DNA of 64,000 bases, from NCBI GenBank assembly GCA_964016885.1, contig OZ024756.1, forward strand, positions 2,728,001 through 2,792,000. Direction: 5' to 3'. This document shows positions 7,119-31,544 of the stretch, piece by piece (the first letter of the stretch is position 1; every line of letters begins with the position of its first letter). Position numbers and translations under genes: made by a program. The notes below the pieces were generated by a model. It did no database searches. It worked only from the letters and a program-made list of their open reading frames with translations, and had not been told where the DNA came from. The stretch comes from Eledone cirrhosa (Eukaryota).

Positions 7119-8036
7119 TCTATATATATAAAACAGAGGATGTCTGTCTGTGTGTCTGTTTCCCTAAAACTCGAAAAGTACACAACCGTTTTTTTTCAAA
7201 CTTTACACATGTAACCCAAATAGCCCCGGAAGTGTTTTGAGCCAAATACATTTCGAATTTTCAATGCCCTAGGGACTGCATTAGGCGATTTAGCGATCTC
7301 TTTCTCTTTCTCTTAGTTTTTCTCTTTTTAGATAGATACATAGATATGACGTCGCGCCTTCATAATATCTGTCTGTATGCCTGACTGTCTGCATTACGTC
7401 ATTATGACGCGATCAGTGTGTGTGTATATATATTCTTATGCCAGGGAACGTCTTCACGAACCAAAGTATCGTCTTCCTGTTTTCCAGATTGATTTTTTTA
7501 GTTTAAGAAGATCCCGTTAAGGTTGAAAGCAGCGATTCTTTGCTTAAACATTAATATGTTATTTTAATATAGATATTCGTGTACAGATATTTTTGCACAC
7601 ACAAAAACAAAATATAAACAAACAAGGCCAAAGATTACATCAGTTAGTCTTAGTGTACTTCATACTGCTTTTAGGTAGAAGATTCCATTAAGGGTGAAAG
7701 CAGCGATTCCTTTTCTGCGTTCACAGATTGATTTTTTTAGTTTCAGAAGATCCCGTTAAGGGTGAAAGCAGTTATTCTTCTCTTAAACTTTAATCTGTTA
7801 TTTTAATATATATATATATATATATATATATATATATATATATATATATATATATATATATATATATATATATATATATATATATAATTATATATTCATG
7901 GACAGATATTTTTGCATACACAATAACAAAATATAAACAAACGTATTTATTTCACGAGGCTCGATAAGGATAAATATATATCAAATATATAAGAACCCTA
8001 GAGAAAATCCCGAGCAACGCCGGGCCATTCTGCTAG
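7119..8036 (+). mobile_element. non-autonomous Helitron
   Basis: 5' A|TCTATATATATAAAA with a TCTG-rich leader; 3' hairpin CCCGAGC-AAC-GCCGGG followed by CTAG|T; no TSD. Confidence 0.8.
7723..7798 (+). ncRNA. type I hammerhead-like fold, family H (further copies at 7485-7559 and, partially, 7673-7712)
   Basis: ACAGATTGA-(T)n-AGTTT, CAGAAGA, TCCC-GTTAA-GGGT, GAAAGCAG...CTT, AAACT-TTAATCTGT: a bulged long stem I with stems II and III; stem III is mutated in this copy. Confidence 0.6.
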
Positions 8037-8402
8037 TATATATAATATATATATATATATATATATATATATATATATATATATATATATATATATATAT
8101 ATATATATATATATATATATATATATGTATCGTTTTATGCATATGTAAGTATATATATATATGTATGTGTGTTTGATTGCGCGTTAGTCCGTTTGTGTAT
8201 CCGTATATATGACTCTATGTGTATCTGTGTCTCTGTGTGTGTGTATGTGTAAATGTGTCTATATGTATCTATATGTATCTGTATGTGTCTGTATGTGTGT
8301 CCGTATTTAAGTTACAGTTGTGTCAGCCACGATAACACAACCTATTATATTGTCAATGTTTTAAGATCAACAACCATGCCACAACCTCTGTTTCTCTGCC
8401 AG

Positions 8403-8545
8403 GGTCTTCATTAGATGTTTACCTGGGTTTCCTCCTCGTTTGTGTCGGATCCTACACCATATTTCAGCTGGTCGGAGGTTGGGAATGTCTCAGACACTGC
8501 CCAACAACCCGCAGCCACCTTCTTGATACGTCGTCGCTCATTTAA
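8403..8545 (+). CDS. candidate terminal coding exon of an unidentified membrane protein
   Basis: Acceptor CCTCTGTTTCTCTGCCAG|G; open frame SSLDVYLGFLLVCVGSYTIFQLVGGWECLRHCPTTRSHLLDTSSLI*; unique, more GC-rich sequence with one hydrophobic stretch. Confidence 0.35.
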
Positions 8546-8847
8546 ACCGAGTTCACAATAGTGTTTTTCAGTGTCGTATATTTGACTTAATATATTGTTT
8601 TGCCTCATTGCATTATTTTCTATTGTCCTATTAATTCTGATTTCAAATTTCATTGAGCTTAACGTTGAGCCTGACGTTGAGCTTGCCGTTGAGCTTGGCT
8701 TTGAGCTTGGCTTTGAGCGTCACATTGATCATTAGTTAGTCTGGTTTTGATGCAATGGATCAGTGATACCAATAGATCGGTGATATCAATATGATACAAT
8801 AATTAATGTATTATCATTATAGCGATTATATTCGAGACTATATTGCT

Positions 8848-9043
8848 GCTGGTCCTCCGTCGGTTTCAATGGAGAGTGTTCCAGTTGTTTGAACCATCGT
8901 TAGTTTGAACAGTCTTCTAGTGAAATTAACGTGCACAGTGAAATAAAGTGTCTTATTGAAAGATACAACTCACCACCCGCTCTGCTGTAGGAAGTCACGA
9001 CCATATAATTATGAGCTCAGCGCCCTAACCATTAAGCCACGCA
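8848..9043 (-). mobile_element. SINE family 2, degenerate
   Basis: Shares CCTCCGTCGGT, AATTAACGTG and GTGAAATAAA.TGTCTT..T.AAG with 33118-33403, and has a tRNA-like head on the minus strand. Confidence 0.55.
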
Positions 9044-9304
9044 AATAATTATAAGCAAAGTTGGCCTCGAAAAGAACATGAACTCATAGCTCAGAGAGCC
9101 GAAAGAATGCCGGGGAGTATTCTAACGAACGCTCTAACGAGGCTGCCAATTCGCCACCTCACCTCAAGATAATTTTGAAAATAGATTAAAATTAGTTCCT
9201 GTAAAATCTATATTTACTGTTCTCTAATCTTCTTTCTATACGTACACATACATTGGAAACCACATATGTACACACATGTAAGAACTTGCCATATACTGGA
9301 TCTT

Positions 9305-28989: not shown

Positions 28990-30311
28990 AGATATCGTTC
29001 TTTATTTGCCACAGGGGCATACAAGAAACGGGACATTACAAGACGTGACGGCGGCGGTTTTACATAAAAATCGTATAAACTTTAACATTAATAAATAATT
29101 GTTTCTACTTTAGGCACAAGGCCAGCAATTACCCAGTGCATTACTGGTACTTTATTTTATCGACCCCGTAAGGATGAAAGGCAAAGTCAACCTCGGCAGG
29201 ATTTGAACTCAGATCGTAAAGGGACGTAACTATGCTGGAAAGCATGGCGTCCGACCCTCTACCGATACTGCTAATCCACCAACCCAACATTAATAACTAA
29301 TAAACTACAGGTGGATTGGCAGTATCGGTAGAGGGTCGGACGCCATGCTTTCCAGGATAGTTACGTCCCTTTACGATCTGACTTCAAATCCCGCCGTGGT
29401 TGATCTTACTTTTCATCCTTACGGGGTCGATAAAATAACGTACCAGTAATGCACTAGGTAATTGCTGGCCTTGTGCCTAAAGTAGAAACAATCAATAAAT
29501 AATAAACTATATATTAAAATAAAATAATAATCGAAATCCCCAATAGGGGGGAACGTTACAGCGGGGTTGTTTTACACCCCGTGGATAGAACAACCCTCAA
29601 CACCAGGAACACGTTTTGTAGATGTTTCCGTCTTCCCTCTGTTTGTCTTCCTCAACCTACAGGTTTATATACAGAGAAGGCCCATTCACTCGGGCCATTT
29701 TCGCCAAATTCACCCACCTTTCAGCAAATTTACTGGGGTGTAGCACCTCTCTCTCCACTCTCACCTTCCTTCAGAAGTGGTACTTAAAGAAGGGGATGTG
29801 TTGTTGTCCGGAGAGAAAGGTATTTACCCCTAGTCCTTTAACCTCGTCCACCATATTAACTCTTTCGCCATAGCCAGGAAAACCGCCTCCCCTTCATTCC
29901 TAAATGAAGGCGGCGGGTGATCCTCACGATGGACTGGGCTGACAACTGGATGTGTCCCACACTTGACACTAGCCGTTTGACATAATTCTACAGATCGGTC
30001 ACCCCTGGGCACTGAACAATTGCGTGCAGACCGATTTCAATGTCTTGCTAGCGTCTTGGCCAGGTAGGTCTTTTGGCAGGGTCCCTGCCAGGGCGTCCGT
30101 GCCTGTAGATTTTGTCTTAAGGTGGCAGAGCTCCTTGGTAGCACTGACAGGCCAAAGACCTGCTGAAGTTATCCAGAGGCCCTGGACAGAAAGTCCTCCC
30201 GAACAGACTGGCCAGTTCGTTCTCCTCGATGCCTAGAGTCTCCCGGAGAACGTCGTCGCAATTATCCTCCACTAATCCCCTATAGAATGTCGAAGTGGAG
30301 TCTCCACTGAT
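28990..30311 (-). mobile_element. Tx1/L1-like LINE 3' fragment, copy 1, interrupted by two SINEs
   Basis: Colinear with 59154-60022 throughout; decayed zf-RVT-type C-terminus. Confidence 0.8.
29096..29492. mobile_element. head-to-head pair of family 1 SINEs (29096-29280 minus, 29310-29492 plus)
   Basis: The arms are near reverse complements with a ~29-nt spacer; each SINE has its own TSD-like flanks. Confidence 0.9.
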
Positions 30312-30424
30312 GTATATGTATAGTTAGCTAGTAGCTATATATATATATATATATATGTGTGTGTGTGTGTGTGTGTGTGTGTGTGTGTGTGTGTGTGTGT
30401 GTGTGTGTGTGTGATGTATAAAAG

Positions 30425-31451
30425 AATATATATACAGCACACAACACACAAAAACAAGATGGACAGAACAAAGGAAAAACACAATTTAAGAAACCAGTCA
30501 CTGAGTAGGTCACAGAATGTGTGACGAAAGATCTTCGAGAATATATAAAAAAACCCATCCGATTAGTGAACCAGCCAGCTGGAAATCTGTGTATATATAA
30601 ATTAAGTATGTGTGTGTGTGTCTGTGTGTCTGTGTATTACCTATAGGGTCGTACATCTTACGACTGATATTCATGAAACTTTACAGGCTCATAGATTCGT
30701 CATCGGGGAGTGTTTTCTATATATCAGCGTATCGTTTTTTTTATTCTGGGGTCATTCTGCAGATAAAGATCGAGAGGGGGGGGGGGGGGTCACCTTTTTT
30801 TAGGTGTCGAAAAATAAGATTTTTGGCTCTAGCTCCCACATTTTGCCACCGATTTCGTTCAAATTTGAAAGCAAAATAGAATTTATCATTGCACATCCTG
30901 TAATGGCTTTATACTTTACATTTATTGTTGAGGGACGGCGTGACAGCCGCTTAAATATTAAAAAAATACCACTTTTAGATTCAAATATCCACTTTTTCGG
31001 CTCTAGCTCCCACATTAATCAATCTACTTTGTTCAAATTTTACACTACGCTAGATCTGATTATTTCACGGCTTAAAGTGAATTTTATGTTCATGAACGGC
31101 GTGGCAGACACTTAAATATTCGAAAATACCACCTTTTCGCTCAAATTACCGCCTTTTCGGCTCTAGCTCCCACATTTTTCAACCGATTTCGTTCAAATTC
31201 GAAACTCCCTCCCCCAGTCACCCGTGTTTCTCAGTGATAGGGGTCATCACCACCCTCCCCCGCATGGCCTGTGTGTGGCCATAGATGAGTCATCAAGAAG
31301 CAGCCGCTAAGATCAACACCATTTCATCAAAGCAGATATTATTTTACCTACCCAGGCAACGCTGCTAGTTCATAATAAATTGAAGTGGAAACCAGAAGGT
31401 GCGTGTGTGTGTGTTTTATTGACAGCATGACCCTCCTAAAGTACAACAATA
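30425..31451 (+). mobile_element. diverged pLTR of the Neptune-like family, split by a Helitron
   Basis: CCAGTCA-CTGAGTA-GGTCACA..TGTGAC-GAAAGATCT at about 30494-30534. The pLTR resumes at 31369 (ATAATAAATTGAAGTG...CATGACCCTCCTAAAGTACAACAAT). Confidence 0.75.
30586..31368 (+). mobile_element. non-autonomous Helitron with internal subrepeats
   Basis: A|TC 5' end and CCCAGGCAACGCTG-CTAG|T 3' end; removing it rejoins the host pLTR. GGCTCTAGCTCCCACAT occurs three times internally. Confidence 0.75.
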
Positions 31452-31493
31452 CACACTCACATACACACACACACATATTAACGGAATCTTCTG

Positions 31494-31544
31494 AGTTTCA
31501 GAAGATCCCGTTAAGGGTGAAAGCAGCGATTCTTTGCTTAAACT
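31494..31544 (+). ncRNA. type I hammerhead-like fold, family H, best copy
   Basis: AGTTT-CAGAAGA-TCCC-GTTAA-GGGT-GAAAGCAG-CGATTCT-TTGCTT-AAACT, preceded by a short inverted copy TAACGGAATCTTCTGA. Confidence 0.65.

What the first reader, a model, noticed from the sequence alone, without database searches (positions are those of the whole stretch)
7485..31544. Multi-copy type I hammerhead fold with a non-canonical CAGAAGA core (family H)
Seen: five copies (1868, 7485, 7673 partial, 7723, 31494) share stem I AGTTT/AAACT, extended past a U-rich bulge by ACAGATTGA/TTAATCTGT. They also share stem II CCC-GTTAA-GGG closed by a U.U pair, GAAA, stem III AGCAG/TTGCT and a CUU cleavage triplet. Every copy, including the inverted stub at 31479-31494, has A where the canonical core CUGANGA has U4. 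The same CAGA change appears in unrelated motifs at 18035 and 56379. Inference: either this natural variant core was amplified while still functional, or a catalytically damped ribozyme was amplified because uncleaved RNA retrotransposes better.
Basis: partly seen in the sequence, partly recalled or inferred. Interest (0 to 1): 0.72.

Follow-up and report, generated by a model that had tools for sequence, protein, structure and literature searches.

The report
Penelope hammerhead with fixed U4A core
Tens of thousands of copies of a jumping gene in this animal genome end in a hammerhead-shaped RNA motif in which a normally fixed core letter (U4) is an A in old and young generations of the element alike, while only loops and the one free core letter have changed, so it is likely a still-folded but slowed self-cutting RNA (cutting untested).

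Summary
The five copies are decayed 3' ends of an autonomous Hydra-type Penelope-like retrotransposon (RT plus GIY-YIG). The motif sits where relatives carry a canonical type I hammerhead: 56 of 57 related elements have U4, none A4. Here A4 is the family state: 19,868 exact copies against 81 with U4 and 133 with C or G. Older lineages, 12-18% decayed, also have A4 (48 of 50, no U). Across lineages the loops, bulge and N7 changed (10 of 20 sites), but 0 of 9 other core letters and 0 of 44 stem letters did, the pattern of a maintained hammerhead. Corrections: only 2 of 5 window copies read CAGAAGA, and the CAGA at 18035 and 56379 is private decay of canonical families. Best reading: a folded, slowed ribozyme in an element that inserts from uncut RNA. 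Cleavage and expression are untested; stems show no covariation within the family. Five literature searches found no natural U4A core. The scan noted this family before on another piece of this genome (e1-10304421). New variant of a known kind.

The parts
1868..1944 (+). 3' end fragment of the element, older lineage (six-letter loop II); core GAGAAGA at 1874-1880, C3 lost, A4 at 1875
   Evidence: loop II matches lineage O4
7433..7569 (+). 3' end fragment with internal deletion; core AAGAAGA at 7505-7511, stem II damaged
7677..7712 (+). partial copy starting at A4 (truncation junction), ending inside stem III
7714..7813 (+). copy with both parts of stem I and core CAGAAGA at 7744-7750; stem III damaged; followed by (TA)n
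31478..31493 (-). inverted stub (core CAGAAGA and start of stem II), head to head with the next copy
31494..31553 (+). best-kept hammerhead fold: proximal stem I, core CAGAAGA 31499-31505, stem II, GAAA, stem III, CUU triplet; 5' strand of distal stem I missing
   Evidence: 100% identical over 75 nt to young copy L089
31554..31663 (+). element 3' terminus (AATAAA) and about 100-nt tail, then (TA)n
   Evidence: (97.6% to the tail of L002)
7958..8008 (-). inverted piece of the same tail
18030..18074 (+). not this family: minimal hammerhead of a second (Neptune-type) Penelope-like element at 16297-18314; its A4 is a private mutation
56372..56425 (+). not this family: decayed copy of a third repeat family whose other copies read CTGATGA

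Best explanation
The motif is the type I hammerhead at the 3' end of an autonomous Hydra-type Penelope-like retrotransposon; it carries A at core position 4 in every lineage sampled, and it likely still folds as a hammerhead but would cut slowly. Shown: the element, the position of the motif, the fixed A4, and a pattern of change confined to loops, bulge and N7. Inferred: the element is copied from uncut RNA, because genomic copies run through the cleavage site into the terminus. Unlike its relatives, whose 6-10-nt stem III can form only in a dimer, this family has a 17-nt stem III that can close in one RNA. A fast monomeric hammerhead about 25 nt from the terminus would cut off the end where reverse transcription is thought to begin, so a damped core would be tolerated or favoured, while residual or protein-assisted cutting keeps the rest of the core under selection.
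For: Element: 18 of 20 loci picked by the endonuclease have the motif downstream; a frame of 626 aa is open in L073 and L077. Relatives: 57 of 66 loci with enough downstream DNA have a core, U4 in 56, C4 in 1, A4 in 0; all 26 Hydra rows of Craig 2021 File S2 have U4. Fixation: A 19,868, U 81, C+G 133; samples not chosen on the core: 46 of 46, 65 of 66, 13 of 13, 48 of 50 in old lineages. Constraint: four young subfamilies differ at 39 upstream sites and 2 bulge sites, none in stems or core. With four old lineages added, 10 of 20 free sites vary against 0 of 9 core sites (Fisher p=0.009) and 0 of 44 stem sites. N7, free in relatives, is the only core letter that changed. Loop II keeps G first and A last in all five versions, the RNnA motif of the loop-stem I contact (PMC2632901). 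Damping: single changes in the CUGA turn gave low activity (PMC9901934); the viroid U4C variant is slow in vitro yet sufficient in vivo (PMC3088659); hammerhead-dead mutants of a Penelope element insert normally in vitro and its ribozyme needs the protein (PMC11167929). Stem III comparison.
Against: No cleavage, RNA end or expression data. Stems never vary within the family, so there is no compensatory covariation. The Fisher tests are post hoc on non-independent sites and one lineage has only 4 copies. The hammerhead fold is not the predicted minimum (-13.0 against -15.1 kcal/mol; proximal stem I 5-8% paired; z -0.8). A protein that reads the 3D fold could give the same conservation without catalysis. 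I saw no measured rate for U4A itself. The link between the long stem III and A4 rests on a single lineage.
Confidence: 0.5

Rival explanations
1. The ribozyme is catalytically dead and its fold is kept as a binding or positioning structure for the element's RT-endonuclease protein.
For: U4 is near-invariant and CUGA-turn mutants show low activity; cleavage is dispensable for insertion in vitro; the triplet is CUU and pair 15.2-16.2 is G-C where the relatives have C-G; Naiads are reported to thrive without canonical hammerheads.
Against: The unpaired catalytic letters G5, A6, G8, A9, G12, A13, A14 stayed fixed while N7 and loops changed. A canonical-core family in the same genome also uses G15.2-C16.2 with CUA or CUU, so CUU alone is no sign of death. 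Earlier AI notes claim Naiads carry a rearranged hammerhead (not tested here).
Confidence: 0.28
2. U4A is a fully working alternative core, compensated by the long stem III, the loop II-bulge contact or the element's protein.
For: The constraint pattern matches a working hammerhead; tertiary contacts are proposed to offset core variants (PMC3088659); protein-assisted cleavage is reported for a Penelope hammerhead.
Against: No rescue of CUGA-turn mutants was seen in a pairwise scan except the C3-G8 swap; U4 contacts the A6-N7 phosphate; A4 occurs in 0 of 57 relatives.
Confidence: 0.15
3. A neutral relic: U4A drifted to fixation in the master element and the region looks conserved only through recent amplification or homogenised 3' ends.
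For: Within the youngest subfamily set the test is weak (0 of 69 against 39 of 868, p=0.047; against the nearest 338 sites p=0.33). Penelope ends recombine and invert often.
Against: Old lineages differ from the young one at 31-45% of upstream sites and inside the loops, so the region is not homogenised, yet stems and core are unchanged.
Confidence: 0.07

Closest known systems
Hydra-clade Penelope-like elements and their 3' hammerheads (Craig et al. 2021, PMC8557442; section 11, File S1 Hydra sheet and File S2 read)
   Same: C-terminal GIY-YIG, DKT, CxCX5C linker, CxxC and CxH, (TA)n targets, type I hammerhead near the 3' end, often a U.U pair closing stem II
   Different: All 26 Hydra rows of File S2 have CUGANGA, C15.2-G16.2 and a short stem III; this family has A4, G15.2-C16.2, a 5-bp stem III with a 7-nt loop, a bulged two-part stem I and a 3' UTR of about 980 nt
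Minimal and variant hammerheads of metazoan Penelope-like elements (Cervera and De la Pena 2014, PMC4209133; parts 1-2 of 4 read)
   Same: location in the terminal repeat, many truncated and inverted copies, family-level core variants known (U3-A8)
   Different: the known variant is a compensatory swap; U4A is unpaired and uncompensated in secondary structure; stem III here need not dimerise
Natural hammerhead core variants (Perreault et al. 2011, PMC3088659; section 8 and passages read, figures not seen)
   Same: rare core departures with reduced activity (U4C, A6C, insertions); U10.1-U11.1 tolerated
   Different: those are single or rare sequences; the text names no U4A; here the variant is fixed through a long succession of lineages and tens of thousands of copies
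Poseidon hammerhead of the green anole element PAc (Frangieh et al. 2024, PMC11167929; passages read)
   Same: Penelope hammerhead in the terminal repeat; uncut RNA is the insertion substrate
   Different: PAc has a canonical core and dead versions were engineered; this is a natural, fixed core change in another clade

Membership tests
Type I hammerhead ribozyme | three helices around the core in type I order | tested here: met
   stems I (5+9 bp), II (3 bp plus U.U), III (5 bp) can all form; not the predicted minimum-energy fold
Type I hammerhead ribozyme | core C3 U4 G5 A6 N7 G8 A9 | tested here: not met
   A4 in 98.9% of 20,082 exact matches; the other letters conform
Type I hammerhead ribozyme | G12 A13 A14, A15.1-U16.1 pair and NUH triplet | tested here: met
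   GAAA and CUU in all lineage consensuses
Type I hammerhead ribozyme | covariation of helices | tested here: inconclusive
   no stem change within the family; relatives have different stems that pair, but they were found with a pairing descriptor
Type I hammerhead ribozyme | loop II RNnA motif for the tertiary contact with stem I | tested here: met
   first G and last A kept in five loop II versions; motif from PMC2632901; the contact itself is not shown
Type I hammerhead ribozyme | site-specific self-cleavage | not testable with these tools
   needs kinetics; no raw RNA reads were available
Rfam hammerhead families | covariance-model match | tested here: inconclusive
   no hammerhead family among the 150 listed of 296 matches; 146 lower-scoring rows were not shown
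Hydra-clade Penelope-like element | single ORF with RT and C-terminal GIY-YIG | tested here: met
   626-aa open frame with YRDD and YIGLT motifs; 905 homologues; no Pfam hit
Hydra-clade Penelope-like element | DKT, CxCX5C linker, CxxC and CxH, N-terminal RWK | tested here: met
   DKT, CNC-X5-C, CDLC, CKH seen; RWR in place of RWK; definition
Hydra-clade Penelope-like element | (TA)n insertion, 5' truncation, inverted and tailed copies | tested here: met
Hydra-clade Penelope-like element | canonical hammerhead near the 3' end | tested here: not met
   hammerhead present at that place but with A4
Hydra-clade Penelope-like element | RT phylogeny inside the clade | not tested
   no tree with the published Hydra proteins was built

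The most novel reading that the evidence does not exclude
CAGANGA is a working alternative hammerhead core: a monomer-competent stem III, the loop II-bulge contact or the element's own protein makes U4 dispensable, the element has run on this core through at least eight master lineages, and CUGANGA-based searches miss a whole class of such ribozymes.
Probability: 0.15. Interest if true: 0.75.

Novelty: new variant of a known kind. Interest (0 to 1): 0.53.

Why it matters
Why Penelope-like elements keep hammerheads is open: cutting is dispensable in vitro, yet the cores are conserved. This family is a natural experiment. A supposedly invariant U-turn letter has been A through a long run of successful lineages, while the rest evolved like a working hammerhead. 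One A4/U4 kinetic comparison, with and without the element's protein, would show whether selection acts on cutting, on slowed cutting or on shape alone, and whether ribozyme searches should allow A4.

Tried and rejected
1. Recurrent U4A in a second family (18035): a DNA search returned almost only A4 copies, but the query carried A; a pattern with N at position 4 showed the family is canonical. Rejected. 2. A canonical U4 subfamily of this element: 905 matches to a looser U4 pattern were mostly head-to-head inversion junctions that spell the canonical core by palindrome (28 of 30 loci read; 17 further loci with variant loops). One old truncated copy (L423) has U4 outside a junction, against 0 of 50. 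The U4 copies fall in all four young subfamilies (5, 2, 3, 7), as independent mutations would. 3. Genomic footprint of cleavage: 1 of 84 copies starts at the cleavage site, but the canonical family shows the same (1 of 29), so the test is uninformative. 4. A4 as an off-switch by pairing with the U-rich bulge: natural U4 copies fold no better in prediction. Not supported. 5. Expression: the one RNA run was a metatranscriptome contig covering only the upstream UTR; no evidence either way. 6. My first clade call, Nematis, came from recall and was dropped for Hydra. 7. A SECIS reading was considered by eye and dropped without a test. 8. Rfam listed only microsatellite-driven matches; viral contigs gave one weak hit; a search for the U4C motif at 2447 found only itself. 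9. Five papers were not held, so no measured U4A rate was seen; figure-only data (Perreault Fig. 5, S6, S7; Roberts Fig. 5) could not be seen and may bear on novelty.
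Full report
Observation. The window lies in a 3.0-Gb, microsatellite-rich animal genome. The five copies and the inverted stub exist. All have A at core position 4, but only 7744 and 31499 read CAGAAGA, and none is a whole motif. Rfam showed no hammerhead among the 150 listed of 296 matches.

How common A4 is. Exact 24-mer counts in the genome: A4 19,868, U4 81, C4 plus G4 133, reversed controls 0. U4 is therefore at the level of random mutation. Samples not chosen on the core agree: 46 of 46 copies picked by the endonuclease (47 of 50 loci used, 3 dropped as duplicates or U4-picked), 65 of 66 picked by the 3' terminus, the exception being an inversion junction, and 13 of 13 in forty random 10-kb stretches. 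The terminus 24-mer has 39,443 exact matches. Two other coded organisms' runs each gave one low-depth contig spanning the motif with no change at position 4; their origin is unknown and I give them little weight.

What carries it. Copies share a 3' end at AATAAA plus (TA)n, are 5'-truncated and often have inverted partners and a tail. [quoted passage not shown] The core lies about 935 nt after the stop and the cleavage site about 25 nt before the terminus. The protein has DKT, a CxCX5C linker, CxxC and CxH, the marks of the Hydra clade in Craig et al. 2021 (PMC8557442, section 11 read).

It is the orthologue of a canonical hammerhead. I scanned 88 of the 91 loci fetched from metagenome, MAG and viral contigs. 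Of 66 with at least 250 nt downstream, 57 have a core followed by GAAAC and GUH (45 distinct): U4 56, C4 1, A4 0, with N7 free. The descriptor, which allowed any letter at position 4, gave 67 sense hits (64 U) against 6 antisense. All 26 Hydra rows of Craig's File S2 have U4. Other families in this genome are canonical too: 21 U4 and 1 C4 hits outside this family in the random stretches.

The claimed recurrence fails. The motif at 18035 ends a Neptune-type element (clade name from recalled motifs). A biased search suggested A4 throughout, but A4 is 61 of 18,608, and the inverted arm of the same insertion is canonical. The motif at 56379 is a decayed copy of a CTGATGA family (part of that output was cut).

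A4 is old, and the rest evolves like a hammerhead. Four young subfamilies (1.3, 2.1, 3.5 and 4.4% from their consensus) differ at 39 upstream sites and two bulge sites, and at none from the proximal stem I to the terminus. A search anchored 3' of stem II found older lineages with A4 in 18 of 18 aligned copies (89 of 151 matches read). A search anchored 5' of the core gave A 48, C 1, G 1, U 0 in 50 of 70 matches read. These fall into four groups 12-18% from their consensus and 31-45% from the young element upstream. Each position was free in at least one of the two searches. Changes between lineages hit the bulge, loop II, loop III, N7 and flanks: 10 of 20 free sites, against 0 of 9 other core sites (p=0.009) and 0 of 44 stem sites; one group has an extra U between the two parts of stem I. 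The tests are post hoc and the sites are not independent. Loop II keeps its first G and last A, matching the RNnA motif whose 3' A pairs with a U of stem I in natural hammerheads (PMC2632901, passages). Against this: stems never vary, so covariation is not shown, and within the youngest set alone the contrast is weak.

Would it cut. Not tested. Single changes in the CUGA turn gave low activity in a pairwise scan (PMC9901934, passages). U4 contacts the A6-N7 phosphate, and a viroid U4C variant is slow in vitro but sufficient in vivo (PMC3088659, section 8 and passages). In a Penelope element tested in vitro, dead hammerheads insert normally, uncut RNA is the main substrate and cutting needs the protein (PMC11167929, passages). 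Predicted folding puts the hammerhead form 2 kcal/mol above the minimum in the young copy and 4-6 above in four old ones, equally for natural U4 copies; the model omits tertiary contacts. Stem III is 6-10 nt in 24 distinct relatives, with no hairpin predicted, but 17 nt here, with -1.9 kcal/mol in the catalytic register. Dimer dependence of short stems III is described in PMC4209133 (parts 1-2 of 4) and PMC6765202 (passages).

Mechanism. Shown: element, orthology, fixation and constraint pattern. Inferred: insertion from uncut RNA, monomer competence, damping by A4, and residual or protein-assisted cutting. I give 0.50 to a folded, slowed ribozyme, 0.28 to a dead fold kept for protein binding, 0.15 to a fully working variant and 0.07 to a neutral relic.

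Novelty. Hammerheads in Penelope-like elements and rare core variants are known. Searches for a U4A or CAGA hammerhead core found none, but five key papers were not held and figures could not be seen. I also read part 1 of 5 of bioRxiv 10.64898/2026.07.22.740005 and passages of PMC6155905; neither of the parts seen mentions this variant. It works like a Penelope hammerhead but fails the U4 membership feature: a new variant of a known kind. The scan noted the same family earlier on another piece of this genome; that note is not independent support. The old-lineage comparison and the rejection of the 18035 recurrence come from my own calls.

Noticed in passing
L332-L421; G000-wide: 5' breakpoints of copies cluster in the core and proximal stem I (26 of 84 start 37-52 nt before the cleavage site, none at 53-84), and hundreds of head-to-head inversions meet inside the core and spell a false canonical CTGAAGA.
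   Followed up: partly
window 31554-31663: The tail beyond the terminus is about 100 nt, longer than the 30-40 nt described for Penelope-like elements.
   Followed up: no
window 16297-18314: Neptune-type Penelope-like element with RT-thumb and GIY-YIG remnant and an inverted arm; about 18,600 genomic copies carry a canonical minimal hammerhead with G15.2-C16.2 and CUA or CUU triplets.
   Followed up: partly
window 2447 (+), L271:211, L148 about 138 nt after the endonuclease: Well-formed hammerheads with U4C cores; the window one matched only itself with one pattern.
   Followed up: partly
window 57715 (+), 63489 (-): Further canonical type I hammerheads of other repeat families; at least seven such families appear in 400 kb of random sequence.
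   Followed up: no
L089, about 460-165 nt before the cleavage site: The element's 3' UTR holds a tandem duplication of about 137 nt (78-80% alike) and is unusually long (about 980 nt).
   Followed up: no
window 39913-51209: 30-bp satellite, 376 copies, 97% matches; further 57-bp (22650-27237), 68-bp and 31-bp arrays.
   Followed up: no
window 29200-29380: Long inverted repeat of a SINE-like sequence that also flanks other loci; it draws a spurious MIR3440 match.
   Followed up: no
L189-L200: Hydra-type Penelope elements with canonical hammerheads lie in bacterial MAG contigs, probably animal host contamination.
   Followed up: no
window 7560-7676 and 7885-7960; L376, L006, L018: A second short repeat recurs beside truncated copies with shared junctions, suggesting a composite non-autonomous element.
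   Followed up: no
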